IMG/VR virus record: IMGVR_UViG_3300021603_000005
Span: 1 to 64,000 of that record
Direction: 5' to 3' (one strand)
Length of the DNA stretch: 64,000 bases
DNA from: a virus
Lineage: Duplodnaviria > Caudoviricetes
Position numbers and translations under genes: made by a program. The notes beneath the pieces were generated by a model. The model saw only the letters and a list, made by a program, of their open reading frames with translations. It was not told where the DNA came from and did not search any database. Shown piece by piece: positions 4,385-46,438 of this stretch (positions are counted from its first letter, which is position 1; every line of letters begins with the position of its first letter).

Positions 4385-4893
4385 GATTGTTATTATTGTG
4401 GTAAAATTACCGAGAGAAAATATGTCAATACATAACTGGTTAAAATAGCGCCAGGATTTTTTTGACCAACGCTGTTTTGGCGAGATGCAATTGGGCCTAT
4501 TGATTAGAACCCCCACCCCCGTTTAATATGACGTGCTAAATAACATAGGTGTCGTTAGAGTGCAAATAGTAGGTTACTGTATATAATACAAGATTTGGTT
4601 TTCTTGGGGCCTTGAATGCGTGGAAAGGCCCCGGCGTTATCGGACCAACCACAACATTATCGAACCGACCTATAAAACCCCCATACCCCTATGGACGGAT
4701 TATCGGACCAAGGCCATCCGGCGAAACAAAGACCGATAAGATACATTTTGCTAGGCCGATAAACATCAGCCAGAACACGGCCGATAACTACTCCGGTTGT
4801 TGGTACGCCAACGACAGATAATATCTTCCCTCTTGCAATAAAAACGACGGACCTTAACTTAACTCTTGAAACCACAATGACTTAGAAAAATAT

Positions 4894-4922
4894 TTGACAA
4901 CCAAACCATTATATACTACAAT
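4894..4922 (+). promoter_or_regulatory. sigma70-type promoter
   Basis: TTGACA-N17-TACAAT with upstream A-tract. Confidence 0.8.
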
Positions 4923-5112
4923 GAGGTGGACACTTAACATAAGGATATAGGACGATGACACCATTAGAACATTATCGGATTGAACTAGCCAGCGGATGGA
5001 CAAAGATTGATCGGACCAAACGGGGTTTTGGGGCGATAACAAGGGAATCGGTCCGGTTGGCAAGAATCAGGTTTTCGGAACGTGTTGCTAAGAATAACAA
5101 GGGGTGATAACC

Positions 5113-5328
5113 ATGATGACTATTGAGACCAAACACGAAACAGGTTACGGGACGTTTAGGGTGACAACAACCGACAAGGGTGCAATAAGTTATAAGACGT
5201 TCCACTATGATGGCAAATATGGGACGTTGCAGTGTAACACCTTGAACGGTTTGGTTTTAGGACTAACCAAGATAGGTTGCACAGTACCGATAACCGATAT
5301 GCGGGTTTTACTGGACATTGGCTATTAA
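5113..5328 (+). CDS. hypothetical protein
   Basis: GGGGTG RBS; lies between promoter 4894 and terminator 5411. Confidence 0.6.
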   Translation: MMTIETKHETGYGTFRVTTTDKGAISYKTFHYDGKYGTLQCNTLNGLVLGLTKIGCTVPITDMRVLLDIGY

Positions 5329-5410
5329 GGAGCGATAACATGTGGAGTATTATAGGACGATACGCTAGTGAACGTGGGGCGATAACTGGTTAAAGTATCG
5401 GTAACGATAT

Positions 5411-5445
5411 TATAGGACCATTCTAGCTAGTGGTCCTATATTTTT
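5411..5445 (+). terminator. intrinsic terminator
   Basis: TATAGGACCA/TGGTCCTATA 10-bp stem followed by T5. Confidence 0.7.
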
Positions 5446-5649
5446 GTCCAGAGCTAAGAGTTATCGGTCTTTTGTTGTTCGACATACACGAATGTTACCG
5501 GACTAGCAAAACATGTCTTATAGGATGATTCGATAACATGGTCAACGGTTATAAGACCAGAAGTAACAACGGGTTACTGCTAGACGAAGAAATGAATAAA
5601 CTGTTCACAAACATGGACCTTGTAATTATAAGACTGATGCTAATTAGTG

Positions 5650-5692
5650 TGATTAACTGGAGAATTGATTAACTGATTAATCAGTGATTAAC
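5650..5692. repeat. TGATTAA cluster (4 copies)
   Basis: Copies at 5650, 5666, 5674, 5685. Confidence 0.8.
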
Positions 5693-5822
5693 CAGATAAA
5701 AACACAGACCGATAATTATTCTCTGTCTCGCAAGTTATTGGACGATATACAGTTATTGTTATCGGCCTAGCAAAAGAGGTCTTATCGGACCAAAGAAAAA
5801 AAGAAAAAAACCGGTTGACTCG

Positions 5823-5851
5823 TTGACTTGCCTGTCTAACAGGTATATGAT
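5823..5851 (+). promoter_or_regulatory. sigma70-type promoter with palindromic spacer
   Basis: TTGACT-N17-TATGAT, upstream A-tracts (UP-like), CCTGT-CTA-ACAGG in spacer. Confidence 0.8.
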
Positions 5852-6007
5852 CTGGTGACAATTAAGCCTATCCTACGGGATAGGACGGATACCTGAGGAC
5901 AACGCTTGTGTTAACACGGCTATCTGCCTGTAGGCAGAATAACCGGTAAACGAGTTATCGGGGCGTTGCCGGGAAACAGCCGAATACCCGATTATAGGGG
6001 TTTGGTT

Positions 6008-6325
6008 ATGTCGGATACTATGTTGGATTCGGGTATCGTCGTTACCTCTGAAACGTTCTTGGGAACGCTCGCAGGGTACGCCAAGACCGCGCGGTTAGTG
6101 GACGCTCTCGTTGCGTCTGATAACCCGACACAGGATGTCGAAAGCGCGTTCAGCGCAATTGAGGCATTGCGCGCTTTGGAGTCGGCAGGCAAGGGTTATA
6201 CTCCTGCTGAGTCTCTGGGGTTTGGTTCCGAAAATGCGTCGACAATCGCCAGCGCGATTCTTGGCAAGCGCGCAAGCACCGCCAAGATTCGGACGATGGC
6301 GCGTAAGATCGGGCGCGCGGTGTAA
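6008..6325 (+). CDS. hypothetical 105-aa Ala-rich protein with basic C-terminus
   Basis: AGGGG RBS; downstream of promoter 5823 and a hairpin-rich leader. Confidence 0.7.
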   Translation: MSDTMLDSGIVVTSETFLGTLAGYAKTARLVDALVASDNPTQDVESAFSAIEALRALESAGKGYTPAESLGFGSENASTIASAILGKRASTAKIRTMARKIGRAV

Positions 6326-6340
6326 CGACGACAAACGGTA

Positions 6341-6388
6341 TGGGGTATCGGGTTTAGCCGATAACAGGGTGCAATTCCTTGTACCCCT
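6341..6388 (+). ncRNA. tRNA-like minihelix (acceptor-like stem plus T-arm)
   Basis: GGGGT/ACCCC stem, ATCGG/CCGAT hairpin, ACAGGG-TGCAATT-CCTTGT T-arm-like hairpin. Confidence 0.5.
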
Positions 6389-6390
6389 AT

Positions 6391-7172
6391 GGTGTACGGT
6401 ATGTCCGATAATGATAGCGGACCTCTGCTAGTTATCAGGCGCGCGGAGCGCGTCAATACGGGTAATCGGTCCGTCCGGTAAAAGCGCGGAGTCGCTGGGG
6501 CGATAATACCGGTTTGTCCGTTCGTGATCGTATCACGTTGTGTCAGCGTTATAGGGTCTGCGCCTAGCGTCTGGTCTTATAATGTTGCCGTCGATAGGGT
6601 ACGGTACGTCCCGATAAGGGTCAGGTCTAGGGGAGATTCCCTGCGCAAAGTAGATAGTCCGCGCCGAAAAACCAATTTTCGGTGGCGGATACTAGTCTAT
6701 CAAAACAGGGATGCAATATGGTCTAGGATGTCCCTCTGCACTGGCAATGTCTTGCAATGGACAGAGACATAAGTCGTGTCTGCGCAAGGCGATATGTATT
6801 GTCGTTGTAGTGTCAGAGGTCCAGTCATATCACACAAACCCCTGGAGAAATCGTTACTGGTGGTAGCCTTACCGGTAAACTAGATGTTAAACGGCGAATG
6901 GATTTTAGTTTCTCTAGTCGGTAGTGCCTGCGTCGATCAATTCGGCGCATGGGTAACGCGAGATGACAGTAGCGCATCGGCGGAATAAAGTCGAGTCAAC
7001 TAAGCCGACTCGTGCCGCGAAGATGTAAAAATGTTCATTCCTTAAGTGGCTTATTCCCATGTAGATACAGCGTTGAACGGTAGGCGCTTTCATAGCGCCC
7101 TATACCAGTCTGCCGCTATAAAGACAACAAACGATGATAACCGCTATCACCGTTAGTCTTTGCCGTATGACC
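6391..7172 (+). ncRNA. large (~780 nt) structured non-coding RNA candidate
   Basis: 5' and 3' ends pair, with many nested long-range helices containing G-U pairs; no credible ORF; followed by a terminator. Confidence 0.7.
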
Positions 7173-7200
7173 AGAGTTAACCCTGTGTTTACATGTTTTT

Positions 7201-7240
7201 CGCCCCTGATGACTCACCATCGTCAGGGGCGTTTTCTTTT
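7201..7240 (+). terminator. intrinsic terminator
   Basis: CGCCCCTGATGA/TCGTCAGGGGCG stem followed by TTTTCTTTT. Confidence 0.9.
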
Positions 7241-7245
7241 CTTAG

Positions 7246-7719
7246 GTGTTCAAACCACAATATGTAGAGTGTATGAATCGTTCATACACACCACACCTAG
7301 TAGCGCGTGACGGAGAAATTGGTATGTCAAAACAATTCGCGGACGGGTCGTGGGGAGTCCGCGTCAACGGGTTTGTCCCCACAAAAAAGCATCCGACAGA
7401 GATTGATAAAGCTGTTGGGGATCGGAGATTCGGGTATCGTGTCAGGCCACAGCGCGATGGGGTCGTGCTGGTCGATGGGGCTGATGGAAGTCCTATCTTC
7501 AAGAGTGCCAGGGGAACGGTTTGCAGAAAACGCAAGATGCCATGTCGGCTCTGTTCAAGGGCTGATAGCGCGGTCGTTGATCCGGCAGTGGGAAAAGAAA
7601 GGCAAACAGAAGTCCTTGTTGGCAAACAAATAAGACGGGATATGTTCCCGCGCTTCAGGGCTCGTAAGGGCCAAAAGCCAGCAAGTCAACAGCATTTCAA
7701 AAACCACACAAGTGTTTAA
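7246..7719 (+). CDS. hypothetical basic protein (uncertain)
   Basis: 157-codon ORF with weak RBS; start uncertain. Confidence 0.35.
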   Translation: MFKPQYVECMNRSYTPHLVARDGEIGMSKQFADGSWGVRVNGFVPTKKHPTEIDKAVGDRRFGYRVRPQRDGVVLVDGADGSPIFKSARGTVCRKRKMPCRLCSRADSAVVDPAVGKERQTEVLVGKQIRRDMFPRFRARKGQKPASQQHFKNHTSV

Positions 7720-7811: not shown

Positions 7812-7886
7812 TGCGGCGGGGTGGAACAGGATTACCATACCAGCCCCATAAGCTGGAGATAGTGGGTTCGACTCCCACCGCCGCTA
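7812..7886 (+). tRNA. tRNA-Met(CAU), atypical, initiator-like 1:72 mismatch
   Basis: GCGGCG/CGCCGC acceptor, CCAGC-CCCATAA-GCTGG anticodon arm, GTGGG-TTCGACT-CCCAC T-arm. Confidence 0.8.
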
Positions 7887-8236
7887 GTATACGGCAGGGT
7901 ATACACTGACCGTAGAGGGCTCTTGGGGAAAGGCGCGATATATAGCGCTCGGTGGGACCAAGAGAGGATAATTTAGTCCACCGCATTAACTCTTCTGTCT
8001 GGCATCGACCAAGGGCCAGTAACTTGAGACTGGTTGGGGTTAACGGCCCCATAAAAAAGAACGAACTAGTCTCTCACGAGGGGTAGGTGAAGCCCTTCTT
8101 TATTCTTCGTTTTTCTGATATAAGTCCTTTTCCCCCGAGGTACTTAAGTCCCGTTGAAAATTTCATAAGTAACTTTTCGCCCTAGGGGAAACACTTTTCG
8201 CACCTTCGGGGTAGTCAGAAACCTCAAAATGACCAG

Positions 8237-8338
8237 TTAATCAGCGAATTAATCAGCAAGTGGTTAATCAATTAACCAGTTAACCAGAGAAAACGCTAAG
8301 TGGTTAATCAGTTAATCGGTTAATCAATTGGTTAATCA
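8237..8338. repeat. TTAATCA cluster (6 exact copies plus variants)
   Basis: Copies at 8237, 8249, 8264, 8304, 8320, 8332; reverse complement of the 5650 cluster unit. Confidence 0.8.
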
Positions 8339-8921
8339 GCCAACTAGAAACACGTAAGTCGTTGAAACGCAACGGGTTATGTGTGAAATGCATGTAAAAA
8401 CCACCTTTTATAATTCCGCCCCATTTCCCCTGTCCTCCTGGCCTATGTGTCTGGGTGTGGGGGGAGGGGTGTATTAGGGGTAGTAGAAGGTAAGGAACGA
8501 TAAGGGGTTACGACAGTCACGCCATCTGTAAGCCAACCCAAAACAACACAAGATATGGGGTGTATGACAGTTTCGTACACACAACATATATGGTGTATAG
8601 TAGCGCCATACACTGTATAGTTCAATTGTACATGTGCGCTAACCTTGATACAAATAGGGGGTAGTTATGACACTTAGGCAAACAGCCTGGACATTCATCA
8701 GGTCTGGGCGAATTGACAGGATGTTCCTGTTTTTCTTCCCGATTCACCGATGCAGGGGGCAATGGTTTTTCATGGTCCCCAAGTGGTACAACGGACATTT
8801 CCACATGACGAGTCTGAACAAGGCTCGTTTCTGATCTCCTCCTCTCCCCAGAGCGCCCCGCAAGGGGCGTGAGGGCGCTGGCGACCCGCGTAGGGCAGCA
8901 AAGTTAAGCGAAACAGATGGA

Positions 8922-41809: not shown

Positions 41810-42030
41810 GTTTGGGCGTGATGGAACCCGGTAATAGTTGATTAGACTAAGAAGAAAGGAGAAATCCTGATATTCTACGCCCAGAGGGCTACAAGTACCC
41901 TGGAACGCTACCCTAATTCCAGGCTCTACTACAGAACCATTAAATGTGGCGTTCTCGAAAGAGAACTAAGCCTTCTTGGCCTTGTCGAAGGGGTGTATAT
42001 ACGGGTTTCCAGTCCTGGCTTACAGCGAAA
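41793..42030 (+). ncRNA. omega-RNA (HEARO-like) scaffold
   Basis: AATCAACT/AGTTGATT-AGACT stem, CTACG, GTACCCTGGAA...TTCCAGGCTCTAC, TTAAA, TTGTCGAAGGG hallmarks. Confidence 0.8.
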
Positions 42031-42048
42031 AAACTGGATAGGAGTATT

Positions 42049-43071
42049 ATGGTTTTCGTGCCAGTGTTAGATAAGAATAATCTTCCATTAATGCCTACGA
42101 AACCGAGTAGGGCTAGGCGGTGGATACGCGCTGGCAGGGCAACTCCGTTTTATAGGAAAGGAATATACTGCGTTCGACTAAAGTCTAACGCGTCAGGAGA
42201 CCATAAACAAGAAGTCGTAATAGGTATTGATCCAGGATCGAAGCGAGAGGCGTACACCATCAAGTCCGAAGCCCATACCTATCTTAATATACTTACTGGT
42301 ACGCCCCATTGGGTCAAGGACGCTGTTGAACAACGTAGAATTATGCGTAGGGCAAGGCGTTTTAGGAAAACACGCCGCAGACCCACGAGGTTTAATAATA
42401 GAAAGGCTAAGAAATTAGCCCCATCAACAAGGGCCAGATGGCAACTCAAACTAAATGTGTGTAAGTTCTTGAAAAAATTATTTAACATTACTCGTTTCAT
42501 CATAGAAGATATTAGGGCCAAGGCACGAAAAAACGCAAAGAAATGGAACAAAAGTTTTAGTCCTCTCGAAGTTGGTAAGAAATGGTTCTATGGTGAACTT
42601 GGCAGTTTAGGTAGGGTATATACAAAACAGGGATACGAAACAAAAGCTTTGAGAGATATCGCTGAGTTGAAGAAAAACAAATCAAAACTAGTCGACAAAT
42701 TCGAGTGCCACAACGTAGATAGTTGGGTATTGGCTAATTGGTTAATTGGGGGCCATATTACACCGGACAACACTGAGATGATAAAATATGTTCCCCTGAG
42801 ATTTCACAGACGACAATTACATGTTATGGTTCCATCTAAAGGTGGGATAAGACGAGAATACGGTAGCACAAGAAGTATGGGACTCAAACGAGGTAGTTTG
42901 GTTTTCCATAAAAAGTATGGCTATGTATACATAGGTGGTACTTCCAAAGGAAGAATAAGTGTTCACGAATTAAACACGGGGAAAAGATTAGCACAAAACA
43001 TAAAATTAGAGGACGTGAGATTCAAGACATACTCGGGCTATAGGAGGGTGGAGAATTCCTCTCTATGCTAA
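42049..43071 (+). CDS. isrB: IsrB-like RNA-guided nickase (RRXRR/PLMP plus split RuvC, no HNH)
   Basis: PLMPT, IGIDPG, Arg-rich bridge helix, IIEDI, HNVDS; 340 aa without HNH or CxxC insert. Confidence 0.8.
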   Translation: MVFVPVLDKNNLPLMPTKPSRARRWIRAGRATPFYRKGIYCVRLKSNASGDHKQEVVIGIDPGSKREAYTIKSEAHTYLNILTGTPHWVKDAVEQRRIMRRARRFRKTRRRPTRFNNRKAKKLAPSTRARWQLKLNVCKFLKKLFNITRFIIEDIRAKARKNAKKWNKSFSPLEVGKKWFYGELGSLGRVYTKQGYETKALRDIAELKKNKSKLVDKFECHNVDSWVLANWLIGGHITPDNTEMIKYVPLRFHRRQLHVMVPSKGGIRREYGSTRSMGLKRGSLVFHKKYGYVYIGGTSKGRISVHELNTGKRLAQNIKLEDVRFKTYSGYRRVENSSLC

Positions 43072-44849: not shown

Positions 44850-44974
44850 CGGAGATAATGGGTGTTTTGATGTCAGTCAAATAGCGAATGGGGATAATGG
44901 AATCGTACACAAAAAGTGTATTTCGATTTTTGAAAAATCGCCTCTTGCGTTAATAGATGCCAGGATGGTGTAAC

Positions 44975-46438
44975 ATGATTGATAGCGACAAGATACAATC
45001 GATATTTGGTTCAGAAAAATGTCTCATCCACAAGGGGATATCTGTCAGTAGCGATAATTTTCGACAGTTGCCGAGATATGTGTCTGAGTTCCTAATTAAT
45101 CACTATGTAGATCCAACAAGCCCTGGAAGTGGGTTACAGACAATACAAAAGCTACTGGACGAATACTATGTGGATAGCACCAAAAGGGAACTGGTTAAGA
45201 GCAAGGTACGACAACATGGTTGTTTGCCAATCTTCGGATTGGTTCGAGCCAGATACGAACAGCGCAAGGATGTGTATCTTGCAGATGTTCCGTCTCTTGG
45301 GGATGATAAGGTACGGGTTTCAGATTGTGTGTTGCGTAGGTATGGCGACGACTTACTAACTACCGGTGTGTGGGGTAGTGTTAACGTCGTATATGACAGG
45401 CAGTCTAGTAAGTATCCGTTCCTTGTTGCGGATTTTACGCCAATGCAAACCACAAATATCGATATCAACAACTGGATCTTAGCCAGGGAGAACTTCAATA
45501 CAGGTGAGTGGATAGATCTAATTATCACAAGCATCGGATTCAGTCCAGAAGCATTATCGCACGACGAGAAAATGTTGTACCTATACCGACTCATACCATT
45601 GATCCAGTATGGCGTCAACATGGTCGAACTTGGACCACCAGAAAGCGGAAAAACTTATACATATAGAAACATCAGTACATACTCTCATGTGATAAGTGGT
45701 TCAAATACCACGATGGCGACATTGTTCTACAACAAACTCAGGAGGAAGATAGGGGCTGTCGGAAAGTTCGATTGCATTTTGTTCGACGAAATAGCTCACG
45801 CCGACTTGCGCAGAGAGATGGTGGATATAGTTAACACGCTCAAGGACTTCATGGGTTCTGGGAAATTCGGTCGAGACGGAGAGGAGTTCTCGTCTGATTG
45901 TAGTATCGTATTGGCAGGTAACATAGACACGGACAGAAAGCAGCGCCGTGTCAGTGGATTTTACCGTCACCTGTTTTCCCCTCTGCCACAAATCATATCT
46001 GAAGATCGTGCGTTTCTTGATAGGATACATGGGTATATTCCTGGATGGCATGCGCACCAGATCATCCCAAGTGACTTCGCCGACACATACGGGTGGATGA
46101 TGGATTACTTCTCCGAAGTTATGCATAGAATGAGAACGCGAAACTATGAGTACATAATCCAGGAACGAGCGGATATGCCGGGAATGGGACAAAGAAATAA
46201 GACCTCAATTCTTCGTCTTGCAACCGGGCTGATTAAGCTAATTTTTCCACACAGAACACACGAGACAATACAAGATGAGGAGTTGAACTTTGTTTTGCAG
46301 CATGCGACAAGCCTACGACAGAGAGTCATTGATCAGTTGGCGGTAATATCTCCGGGTGAATTTGGTGGTAAGCTTTCTTTCGATCTAAAGGAAGGATGTG
46401 GTTATGCAAGTAAAAATCTTGAGTCAACCAGTTCTTAA
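44975..46438 (+). CDS. BrxL-like MCM-type AAA+ ATPase lacking the Lon protease domain
   Basis: LPRYVSEFL, ELGPPESGKT, LFYN, FDEIA, LKDFM.SG.F.R, AFLDRIHGYIPGW. Confidence 0.85.
   Translation: MIDSDKIQSIFGSEKCLIHKGISVSSDNFRQLPRYVSEFLINHYVDPTSPGSGLQTIQKLLDEYYVDSTKRELVKSKVRQHGCLPIFGLVRARYEQRKDVYLADVPSLGDDKVRVSDCVLRRYGDDLLTTGVWGSVNVVYDRQSSKYPFLVADFTPMQTTNIDINNWILARENFNTGEWIDLIITSIGFSPEALSHDEKMLYLYRLIPLIQYGVNMVELGPPESGKTYTYRNISTYSHVISGSNTTMATLFYNKLRRKIGAVGKFDCILFDEIAHADLRREMVDIVNTLKDFMGSGKFGRDGEEFSSDCSIVLAGNIDTDRKQRRVSGFYRHLFSPLPQIISEDRAFLDRIHGYIPGWHAHQIIPSDFADTYGWMMDYFSEVMHRMRTRNYEYIIQERADMPGMGQRNKTSILRLATGLIKLIFPHRTHETIQDEELNFVLQHATSLRQRVIDQLAVISPGEFGGKLSFDLKEGCGYASKNLESTSS

What the first reader, a model, noticed from the sequence alone, without database searches (positions are those of the whole stretch)
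5823..7240. Dedicated transcription unit: small protein plus a ~780-nt closed, multi-domain structured RNA
Seen: a consensus promoter (5823-5851), a hairpin leader, a 105-aa ORF, then ~870 nt with no credible ORF ending in a strong terminator (7201-7240). Within 6391-7172 the ends pair (GGTGTACGGTA 6391-6401 with TGCCGTATGACC 7161-7172; TGATAGCGG 6412-6420 with CCGCTATCA 7141-7149). Nested long-range helices follow: TATAGGG 6550-6556/CCCTATA 7098-7104, GCGCCTA 6560-6566/TAGGCGC 7081-7087, TTGCCGT 6585-6591/ACGGCGA 6891-6897, TCTAGGGG 6626-6633/CCCCTGGA 6839-6846, TCCCTG 6638-6643/CAGGGA 6706-6711, CCTCTG 6733-6738/CAGAGG 6814-6819. There are also many local hairpins with G-U pairs, and the segment is more GC-rich than its flanks. 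GGCGCT/AGCGCC (7083-7099) competes with two long-range helices, a possible switch. Known: phages encode large ncRNAs of this size class near tRNAs (GOLLD, ROOL). Inference: this is a highly expressed early large ncRNA, possibly a new class, and the co-transcribed protein with its basic C-terminus may be its partner.
Basis: partly seen in the sequence, partly recalled or inferred. Interest (0 to 1): 0.88.

Follow-up and report, generated by a model that had tools for sequence, protein, structure and literature searches.

The report
New large phage RNA with partner protein
This phage carries a gene for a folded non-coding RNA of about 800 bases that matches no catalogued RNA family and, in more than 60 related phage sequences, an RNA of this kind always sits directly behind the gene for the same small, previously undescribed protein, so the two probably work together.

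Summary
The unit is real. A sigma-70-type promoter (5823-5851) is followed by a leader hairpin, a true 105-aa gene (6008-6325), a tRNA-like element (6342-6389), about 800 nt of non-coding RNA (about 6399-7199) and a strong terminator (7201-7241). The RNA region has no coding signal and folds better than shuffles (z -4.1). It keeps 95% of predicted pairs across three relatives, and 39 pairs changed on both sides, against 2-6 in slid controls. Nothing in Rfam 15 matches it, even at E 10.

The small protein belongs to an unnamed family of 72 clusters. It is a confidently modelled helical fold with no known structural match and is predicted to form a dimer. In all 60-odd loci found, a conserved gene-free stretch of about 1 kb follows the gene. 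In the largest group this stretch covaries strongly. Four further loci were found by an RNA pattern alone, and all four had the gene just upstream.

Upstream of every module lies a dense field of TTATCGG(AC) motifs. Expression, protein-RNA binding and function are untested. The scan noted the same unit in another genome (e1-5781429).

The parts
4637..5790 (.). Context: a field of TTATCGG(AC)/TTATAGGAC motifs just upstream of the unit.
   Evidence: The field holds 12 of the genome's 27 TTATCGG copies. For CCGATAA, 19 copies in the window compare with 7.6 expected. The same field, with 14-36 copies on the gene's strand, lies upstream of the module in all 17 distant loci checked.
5795..5851 (+). 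A-rich UP-like tract and a sigma-70-type promoter (-35 TTGACT 5823-5828, -10 TATGAT 5846-5851).
   Evidence: The consensus scan scores it 10/12. The A tract and -35 box are conserved in L001. Promoter activity is inferred, not measured.
5867..5884 (+). Leader hairpin CCTATCC-TACG-GGATAGG.
   Evidence: L001 carries a compensatory change (CCCATCC/GGATGGG).
6008..6325 (+). Gene for a 105-aa helical protein of an unnamed family, referred to here as ORF105.
   Evidence: Third-position bias is 38/26/74. The family has 72 clusters. The AF2 model has pLDDT 92. There is no Pfam or PHROG hit and no fold match. A homodimer is predicted: ipSAE 0.83 against a best control of 0.00, at least 91% of contacts shared between runs, pLDDT at least 88.
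6342..6389 (+). tRNA-like three-way element: an acceptor-like stem, one arm and a T-arm-like hairpin with a 7-nt loop.
   Evidence: It folds the same way in all group A sequences. The arm covaries (TATCGG/CCGATA, TTGCGG/CCGCAA, TTGACG/CGTCAA), and the loop reads UUCGAUU in L005 and L007. ARAGORN and the Rfam tRNA model do not call it.
6399..7199 (+). Core of the large structured RNA.
   Evidence: It is 77-80% identical to L001 and L005, with long stretches of 100% identity. Of 293 predicted pairs, 95% are kept and 39 have changes on both sides, against 2-6 in slid controls. No Rfam family matches.
6458..6521 (+). Branched hairpin domain (6458-6471/6507-6521, 6472-6476/6498-6502, tip 6483-6487/6492-6496).
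   Evidence: There are 7 pairs with changes on both sides, including one that compensates the window's own TAATCGG variant (helices 6-8).
6527..6605 (+). Long hairpin containing the G-U-rich helix AGGGUC/GGUCUU.
   Evidence: The helix has 30 pairs, mostly invariant, with many G-U pairs that would be C-A on the other strand (helix 10). A GGGUCU-hairpin-GGGUCU motif is the most conserved feature of the sister RNAs.
6627..6843 (+). Middle domain, closed by 6627-6631/6839-6843 and holding 6635-6643/6706-6714, hairpin 6650-6700, 6726-6742/6809-6823 and 6759-6780.
   Evidence: The closing helix is only 80% paired. The inner helices are 90-98% paired and include a few changes on both sides.
6853..6955 (+). 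Three hairpin arms: 6853-6867, 6869-6924 and 6925-6955.
   Evidence: There are 10 pairs with changes on both sides, and all cells are paired in the arm 6925-6955 (helices 23-27).
6992..7050 (+). The most conserved block: hairpin 6992-7012 and helix 7014-7025/7036-7050.
   Evidence: The block is about 93% identical over 6947-7107. Pair 6992/7012 changes from C-G to U-A in L005.
7058..7195 (+). 3' domain closed by 7058-7077/7176-7195, holding hairpin 7079-7106 (7083-7099 inside), 7108-7116/7162-7171 and hairpin 7130-7154.
Evidence: There are 8 pairs with changes on both sides (helices 31-35).
7201..7241 (+). Intrinsic terminator: 12-bp G+C-rich stem, 7-nt loop and a U tract.
   Evidence: Found by the scan. 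L005 has 3 pairs with changes on both sides (helix 36).
7813..7885 (+). Context: tRNA-Met gene about 570 nt downstream.

Best explanation
**What it is.** Window 5823-7241 is one early transcription unit of an uncultured 143-kb phage. It makes two products.
- A small helical protein (ORF105, 6008-6325) that most likely forms an intertwined dimer with basic C-terminal tails.
- A stable, multi-domain non-coding RNA of about 800 nt (about 6399-7199 plus the terminator hairpin).

**How it most likely works.**
- Host RNA polymerase starts at the sigma-70-type promoter and stops at the intrinsic terminator.
- The tRNA-like element between gene and RNA (6342-6389) is cut by the host's tRNA-processing enzymes (RNase P, and RNase Z or a 3' exonuclease). 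This frees the RNA from the mRNA.
- The RNA folds into several independently closed domains.
- The RNA then acts in trans together with the ORF105 dimer as a ribonucleoprotein early in infection.

**Shown here:** the RNA is structured and under selection on the plus strand; the ORF is a real gene; gene and RNA are strictly linked across a wide phage clade; no known RNA family matches.

**Inferred:** the promoter, the timing, the processing, the protein-RNA contact and the trans action.

**Unknown:** what the particle does. My best guess is host takeover or control of the phage's own early region, because the module always follows the TTATCGG(AC) motif field.
For: **RNA structure**
- Folding z-score is -4.06 on the plus strand and -2.48 on the minus strand.
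- In group A, 95.3% of cells are paired and 39 pairs have changes on both sides, against 2-6 in slid controls and 16 in shuffles, 0 of 500 shuffles reaching the observed value.
- Many conserved G-U pairs fix the strand.
- There is no coding periodicity, and every frame has at least 8 stops.

**Sister RNAs behind homologous genes**
- 93.2% of cells are paired and 92 pairs have changes on both sides, against 16-25 in slid controls.

**Novelty**
- No Rfam 15 family matches at E up to 10 in the window or in a group B locus, nor at E up to 1 in 10 loci.

**Protein**
- The coding signal is 38/26/74.
- The family has 72 clusters at E 1e-3 or better, and the model has pLDDT 92.
- A dimer is predicted: ipSAE 0.83 against a best control of 0.00, runs agreeing in at least 91% of contacts, pLDDT at least 88. 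In calibration this mark was reached by 20 of 30 solved homodimers and 1 of 23 monomers.
- The last 25 residues carry a median net charge of +4.5 across the family.

**Linkage**
- Every ORF105 homologue with enough flank is followed by a gene-free stretch of 1 kb or more.
- 60 of 62 such stretches fall into homologous clusters.
- A core profile links clusters B, E, L031 and L049/50 at the same offset from the stop codon.
- An RNA-only pattern scan of IMG/VR gave 8 loci. All have the gene directly upstream on the same strand, and 4 of them had not been found through the protein.

**Processing element**
- It has a conserved three-way fold with a covarying arm and a UUCGAUU T-loop.
Against: - No expression data could be obtained, so the transcript, its ends and its abundance are all inferred.
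- Protein-RNA binding rests on gene linkage and a basic tail only. The protein as a whole is not basic (median pI 6.6).
- Co-transcribed neighbours need not bind each other.
- The window's RNA (group A) cannot be aligned with the RNAs of the other groups by blastn, nhmmer or three covariance models. 'One RNA family with one partner' is therefore shown for groups B and E and only inferred for this window.
- Group A has only three full sequences and one partial one, so many helices are invariant and untested.
- The tRNA-like element is seen only in group A.
Confidence: 0.5

Rival explanations
1. An RNA-only machine. The RNA assembles by itself into a higher-order particle, as GOLLD and ROOL do. 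ORF105 merely shares the promoter, or has an unrelated early function.
For: It is similar to GOLLD and ROOL in size, in ornate multi-domain folding, in being carried by phages, in having a tRNA-like element and a tRNA gene nearby, and in having a better-conserved 3' part. GOLLD and ROOL properties are taken from 10.1101/2024.12.08.627333. ORF105 is not basic overall.
Against: The strict two-way linkage of gene and RNA holds over proteins only 30-45% identical and over RNAs too diverged to align. A neighbour sharing only a promoter would be expected to be lost or swapped in some lineages. There is no match to the GOLLD or ROOL models.
Confidence: 0.25
2. A cis-acting element. The structured stretch is a long 3' UTR that stabilises, localises or regulates the ORF105 mRNA, or that insulates the downstream genes, rather than a trans-acting RNA.
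For: It shares a promoter and terminator with the ORF. Outside group A no processing element was recognised.
Against: A conserved, covarying multi-domain structure of 800-1000 nt is far more than any known bacterial 3' UTR needs. The RNA is better conserved than the gene it would serve: 77-80% nucleotide identity with perfect blocks, against 67-74% for the ORF. In group A a tRNA-like element sits exactly at the junction.
Confidence: 0.1
3. A DNA-level element. The conserved non-coding stretch is a replication origin, packaging site or protein-binding region next to the motif field, and the predicted RNA structure is incidental.
For: It lies next to a dense array of a 9-mer motif that looks like a protein-binding field. 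Several large contigs end within 0-2 kb of the module.
Against: Changes on both sides keep Watson-Crick and G-U pairs on the plus strand only, far above slid and shuffled controls. The stretch is framed by a promoter and an intrinsic terminator. Sites bound as DNA do not need nested helices hundreds of bases apart.
Confidence: 0.05
4. A very diverged member of a known class: a group I or II intron, RNase P RNA, tmRNA, GOLLD, ROOL, OLE or an OMEGA/HEARO guide RNA.
For: Only loose likenesses exist. There is a tRNA-like module, as in tmRNA and in GOLLD linkers, and short words such as AAGUCCG and UUAUCGGUC recall RNase P P4 (own knowledge, not a test).
Against: There is no hit to any Rfam 15 model at E up to 10 with lax filters, in the window or in a group B locus. 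ARAGORN finds no tmRNA. The genome has no reverse transcriptase. No split host gene flanks the RNA. The genome's IsrB-like gene is 35 kb away.
Confidence: 0.03

Closest known systems
GOLLD and ROOL RNAs (Rfam RF01998, RF03087)
   Same: All are large (0.6-0.8 kb and more), elaborately folded non-coding RNAs carried by phages, often near tRNA genes. GOLLD has a better-conserved 3' part and sometimes tRNAs in its linker. Their function is unknown (10.1101/2024.12.08.627333).
   Different: Neither covariance model matches. GOLLD and ROOL have no dedicated protein partner and assemble without protein, whereas this RNA always follows the same small protein gene. ORF105, its obligate neighbour, was not found in any of 185,579 prokaryote genomes, so there is no sign of prophage carriage.
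OLE RNA with its OapA/B/C proteins (Rfam RF01071)
   Same: Both are large structured RNAs encoded next to, and transcribed with, the gene for a dedicated partner protein, and OLE works as a ribonucleoprotein (own knowledge).
   Different: OLE is bacterial (extremophilic Firmicutes), and OapA is a membrane protein. ORF105 is a soluble helical protein with no Pfam match. The OLE model does not match.
tRNA-punctuated processing (phage T4 tRNA-cluster stable RNAs; MALAT1-mascRNA)
   Same: A tRNA-shaped module placed at the junction of two RNAs lets RNase P and RNase Z define their ends (own knowledge).
   Different: Here the module has one arm in place of the D and anticodon arms, and no tRNA finder calls it. 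Cleavage has not been tested.
phi29 packaging RNA (pRNA)
   Same: Both are phage-encoded structured RNAs made from an early promoter that work together with phage protein (own knowledge).
   Different: pRNA is 174 nt and binds the portal. The two show no sequence or structural likeness, and nothing here points to packaging.

Membership tests
GOLLD RNA (RF01998) | Matches the family's covariance model. | tested here: not met
   There is no hit at E up to 10 on window 5600-7500, nor in relatives.
GOLLD RNA (RF01998) | Self-assembles into a multimeric RNA-only cage. | not testable with these tools
   This needs cryo-EM or light scattering on the transcript.
ROOL RNA (RF03087) | Matches the family's covariance model. 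| tested here: not met
   There is no hit at E up to 10.
OLE RNA (RF01071) | Matches the covariance model and lies next to oapA. | tested here: not met
   No Rfam hit. The neighbouring protein has no Pfam family.
Group I / group II introns (RF00028, RF00029 and relatives) | Catalytic core recognised by the covariance model; interrupts a host gene; for group II, often an RT ORF. | tested here: not met
   No Rfam hit. The genome has no RVT_1 domain. The flanks are a complete ORF and a terminator.
RNase P RNA, tmRNA | Recognised by the Rfam models or by ARAGORN. | tested here: not met
   No hit.
tRNA (for 6342-6389 only) | Cloverleaf with D, anticodon and T arms, called by tRNA finders. | tested here: not met
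   ARAGORN and RF00005 do not call it. Only one arm stands between the acceptor stem and the T arm.
tRNA-like processing element (for 6342-6389) | An acceptor-like stem stacked on a T-arm-like hairpin with a 7-nt loop, the minimal RNase P/Z substrate. | tested here: met
   The fold is the same in all group A sequences, with a covarying arm and a UUCGAUU loop in two of them. Cleavage itself is not tested.
ORF105-linked large phage RNA (proposed here) | A structured, gene-free stretch of 0.8-1.1 kb directly 3' of an ORF105-family gene on the same strand. | tested here: met
   Window 6326-7240. The same layout is seen in all other loci.
ORF105-linked large phage RNA (proposed here) | Shares the conserved core of the main group (model R2, built from 32 sequences). 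| tested here: inconclusive
   R2 finds groups B and E and weak outliers. In group A it finds only a 52-nt stretch in L001 at E 1.8. The reverse models R1 and R3 find nothing significant. Only short motifs are shared: the GUCCG-AUAA hairpin and the GGGUCU/GGUCU helix.
ORF105 protein family (unnamed) | Motif GxGYTPxxxLGFGSxNAxxIAxxILGxR and a length of about 105-125 aa. | tested here: met
   Alignments A4 and A5 and the profile search.

The most novel reading that the evidence does not exclude
The small dimeric protein, the large RNA and the upstream TTATCGG(AC) field form one three-part system that no described phage has. A sequence-specific factor, either ORF105 itself or a conserved host protein, coats the 1-3 kb motif field at the start of the early region. 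The abundant RNA carries the same word in its conserved hairpins, in its leader and next to its ribosome-binding site. It would titrate or deliver that factor, setting the timing of early transcription or protecting the entering DNA.
Probability: 0.1. Interest if true: 0.9.

Novelty: new variant of a known kind. Interest (0 to 1): 0.8.

Why it matters
Only a handful of large, intricately folded bacterial or phage RNAs are known (GOLLD, ROOL, OLE, raiA, HEARO), and the function of most is still open.

This one adds a new class with a useful handle. It has an obligate, co-transcribed protein partner of unknown fold, conserved across dozens of uncultured phages of 40-180 kb. That gives a direct experimental route: co-express the two, pull down the complex and solve it.

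The RNA next to a conserved protein has also diverged beyond recognition between phage groups. This makes the set a natural test case for how fast a large RNA can change while keeping its partner. The motif field always found upstream hints at a wider, undescribed organisation of the early region in these phages.

Tried and rejected
- **Rfam.** Searches at gathering and at permissive thresholds on the window, on 10 relatives and on a group B locus found nothing but tRNAs and chance hits.
- **Cultured phages.** blastn of the unit found no match. The AAA+ ATPase and the terminase are at most 31% identical to any cultured phage, so host and taxon stay unknown.
- **DNA word scans for more group A members.** Four conserved words in IMG/VR and one in JGI metagenomes found only the L001 genome and one chance 17-mer, L010.
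- **Bridging group A to the other RNA groups.** blastn, nhmmer and the models R1, R2 and R3 gave no significant link.
- **Protein fold searches.** The best PDB result was Z 3.3. Foldseek against PDB and BFVD gave no match at E 1e-3 or better, and the ESM Atlas gave nothing usable. Histone-fold rows at Z about 3 are not evidence.
- **Prophage search.** ORF105 was not found in 185,579 prokaryote genomes.
- **Retron, DGR or group II reading.** The genome has no reverse transcriptase.
- **Literature.** The motif words turned up only unrelated primers. The supplement of the IMG/VR structured-RNA survey (PMC10690425) is not held, so I cannot say whether parts of this RNA are among its 10,006 unnamed candidates.
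- **RNA pairing with field transcripts.** I considered that the RNA pairs with transcripts of the motif field through GUCCGAUAA. In the main group that word lies mostly inside a covarying stem, so it is not a free antisense segment.
- **Chi-like or primase-site readings of the motif.** These are from memory only and nothing supports them.
Full report
**Setting.** The window is the first 64 kb of a 143,428-bp IMG/VR phage record whose ends overlap by 55 bp. It carries phage genes (ribonucleotide reductase, exonuclease, AAA+ ATPase, terminase) and four tRNAs. No cultured phage is close: its proteins are at most 31% identical and blastn of the unit finds nothing.

**The observation.** The scan finds TTGACT-17-TATGAT at 5823-5851 and a 12-bp terminator at 7201-7231 followed by a U tract.
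- ORF 6008-6325 is the only credible gene between them.
- Region 6330-7200 folds at -319 kcal/mol against -279 +/- 10 for dinucleotide shuffles. That is z -4.06 with 0 of 20 shuffles as good. The opposite strand gives z -2.48.
- Among the window, L001 and L005, the ORF varies mainly at third codon positions (38/26/74). The downstream stretch shows no periodicity (83/99/79) and has at least 8 stops in every frame in all three sequences.
- So the ORF codes for protein and the rest does not.

**Relatives of the window's own type (group A).** Through the protein I found a second complete phage genome (L001 = L004, L008, L009, L011, L027; protein 69% identical), Logan contigs L005/L006 (82%) and a partial L007 (71%).
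- The non-coding part is better conserved than the gene: 77-80% nucleotide identity against 67-74%. Stretches of up to 90 nt are almost invariant (6947-7107 is 93% identical), separated by variable hairpins and indels.
- On the three full sequences, 95.3% of cells in the consensus structure form pairs.
- 39 pairs changed on both sides while staying paired. Controls with one partner slid by 1-3 columns give 2-6, shuffles give 16 +/- 3, and 0 of 500 shuffles reach the observed value.
- Clear cases are GGCGC/GCGCC to GGUAC/GUACC at 7083-7099, C-G to U-A at 6992/7012, the tip helix 6483-6496 with four covarying pairs, and the terminator stem.
- Many invariant G-U pairs, for example along 6527-6605, fix the strand as plus.

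Five proposed long-range helices are not kept in the relatives: 6391-6401/7161-7172, 6412-6420/7141-7149, 6550-6556/7098-7104, 6560-6566/7081-7087 and 6585-6591/6891-6897.
- The 5' partner region is replaced by an 80-200-nt insertion in the relatives.
- The 3' partners pair locally, with compensatory changes: 7108-7116/7162-7171 and hairpin 7130-7154, where G-C becomes A-U or G-U.
- The hairpin 7083-7099, read as a possible switch, is simply the conserved structure.
- Helices 6626-6633/6839-6846, 6638-6643/6706-6711 and 6733-6738/6814-6819 survive.
- The RNA is therefore a string of separately closed domains, not one closed circle of nested helices.

**The junction element.** The segment 6342-6389, directly after the stop codon, folds in every group A sequence into an acceptor-like stem (GGGGUA/UACCCC), one arm and a T-arm-like hairpin with a 7-nt loop.
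- The arm covaries (TATCGG/CCGATA, TTGCGG/CCGCAA, TTGACG/CGTCAA).
- The loop reads UUCGAUU in L005 and L007.
- tRNA finders do not call it.
- An acceptor stem stacked on a T arm is the known minimal substrate of RNase P and RNase Z (own knowledge). I therefore read it as the signal that separates the mRNA from the RNA. This is inference only.
- Some members of the main group carry a tRNA or tRNA-like call at the RNA's 3' end instead: +865 in L063/L064 and +992 in L014/L054.

**The protein.** ORF105 has no Pfam or PHROG family.
- A profile of five homologues finds 72 clusters in 1.84 billion representatives, 51 of them at E 1e-10 or better. All but two of the 72 listed are 71-164 aa long. They share the motif GxGYTPxxxLGFGSxNAxxIAxxILGxR.
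- With 60 sequences, AlphaFold2 gives a five-helix model at pLDDT 92.
- The model matches nothing in the PDB or BFVD: Foldseek finds no hit at E 1e-3 or better, and the best VIA Z is 3.3.
- Two copies are predicted to form an intertwined dimer. The ipSAE is 0.83 against a best control of 0.00, the runs share at least 91% of contacts, and pLDDT is at least 88. In calibration this mark was reached by 20 of 30 solved homodimers and 1 of 23 monomers. The model supports binding but does not show it.
- The family is neutral overall (median pI 6.6), but its last 25 residues carry a median net charge of +4.5.

**The wider family.** Pattern searches with the protein alignment gave 10 IMG/VR loci and 55 metagenome loci, and exact look-ups gave more.
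- In every case with enough flank, the gene is followed by about 1 kb or more without a called gene.
- All-against-all blastn of these downstream stretches puts 60 of 62 into clusters: B with 43 loci, E with 7, A with 5 (the window's), and two small ones.
- A profile of the B core also finds clusters E, L031 and L049/50 at the same distance from the stop codon, at E 1e-4 to 2.5e-7. Those groups therefore share one RNA.
- On six diverse B sequences, 93.2% of cells pair and 92 pairs changed on both sides, against 16-25 in slid controls. No Rfam family matches them either.
- The link holds in reverse. A pattern taken only from the RNA core (TAGGGTCT...GGGTC...GGTTATCGG) hits eight IMG/VR loci. 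All eight have an ORF105 gene directly upstream on the same strand, and four of them were new.
- No prokaryote genome among 185,579 species carries the gene. This suggests the carriers are not prophages in sequenced hosts.

**Limit of the family claim.** The window's RNA cannot be aligned with groups B or E.
- blastn, nhmmer and three covariance models give nothing significant in either direction: R1 from 6947-7107, R3 from 6458-6623 and R2 from 32 B/E cores.
- Only short features are shared. One is a hairpin GUCCG-AUAA...-CGG near the 5' end. The other is a G-U-rich helix made of two GGGUCU-like strands around a variable hairpin, which holds the only invariant columns of the B/E core.
- Either the RNA has diverged beyond recognition while its partner gene stayed recognisable, or it was replaced.
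- I file the window's RNA under the same module by position and partner, not by demonstrated RNA homology.

**The motif field.** CCGATAA/TTATCGG occurs 19 times in the window against 7.6 expected, and 15 of these lie in 4637-6617. 12 of the genome's 27 copies lie in 4-6 kb.
- In all 17 distant loci checked, the 2.3-3 kb upstream of ORF105 hold 14-36 copies on the gene's strand and 1-11 on the other. About 0.2 per strand would be expected by chance. Beyond the RNA there are 0-1 copies.
- Only (G/A)TTATCGG(A)(C) is conserved, and spacing is irregular at 15-60 nt.
- The word recurs in the window's leader (5955-5961). A TTATAGG variant lies next to the ribosome-binding site, and the reverse complement lies in the RNA's 5' hairpin (6403-6411, conserved in all of group A).
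- In the main group, however, that hairpin's stem covaries away from the word in several members. The link between RNA and field is therefore suggestive, not shown.

**Reading.** The best-supported explanation is a dedicated early unit that yields a processed, stable, multi-domain RNA and its partner protein. The partnership is inferred from linkage that has outlasted the loss of recognisable RNA similarity.
- The main rival is an RNA-only particle of the GOLLD/ROOL kind.
- cis-acting, DNA-level and known-family readings are less likely, for the reasons given under each rival.
- The scan's first stage had already noted the tRNA-like element (e1-5746086), the motif field (e1-5746088) and the same unit in the L001-type genome (e1-5781429). 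I checked all three here.

Noticed in passing
window 4637-5790; L012-L021, L028, L039, L049, L057, L058, L074, L079 and L080 upstream of the ORF105 gene: A dense field of the 9-mer TTATCGGAC (variant TTATAGGAC), biased to one strand. It has 14-36 copies in 2.3-3 kb and always ends at the ORF105-RNA module. It is conserved as a word across phages whose ORF105 proteins are only 30-45% identical. It looks like a binding-site array for an unknown factor.
   Followed up: partly
window 5650-5691 and 8227-8354: Clusters of TTAATCA / GTTAACCAG-type repeats in inverted orientation bracket the cassette that holds the RNA, the tRNA-Met gene and several small ORFs.
   Followed up: no
L001 4386-4587, L005 2891-3010, L007 about 636-716: Relatives carry an extra 80-200 nt between the tRNA-like element and the RNA core. 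It includes a conserved G+C-rich hairpin (GCGCGCCGTC...GACGGCGCGC followed by CTTT), which the window lacks.
   Followed up: no
L063/L064 at +865, L014/L054 at +992 and L057 at +1521 from the ORF105 stop: ARAGORN calls a tRNA (Asp) or an untyped tRNA-like gene right at or just after the 3' end of the large RNA in some main-group loci. tRNA-shaped punctuation may therefore recur at either end of these RNAs.
   Followed up: no
contigs behind L002/L012, L016, L046 and L059 (160-166 kb): In four large contigs the module lies within 0-2 kb of a contig end. This might mark a physical genome end or the boundary of a long terminal repeat.
   Followed up: no
G000 127339-130725 (L082), beyond the window: The terminase match lies in an open frame of 1111 aa. 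That is unusually long and could hold an intein or a fusion.
   Followed up: no
window 41944-43071 and 44957-46438: An RRXRR/HNH-type protein (IsrB/IscB-like) and a BrxL-like ATPase lacking a Lon domain are encoded in the phage. Both were also noted by the first stage.
   Followed up: no
window 7246-7719: A 157-aa open frame directly after the terminator has no Pfam or PHROG match. I did not test whether it is a real gene.
   Followed up: no
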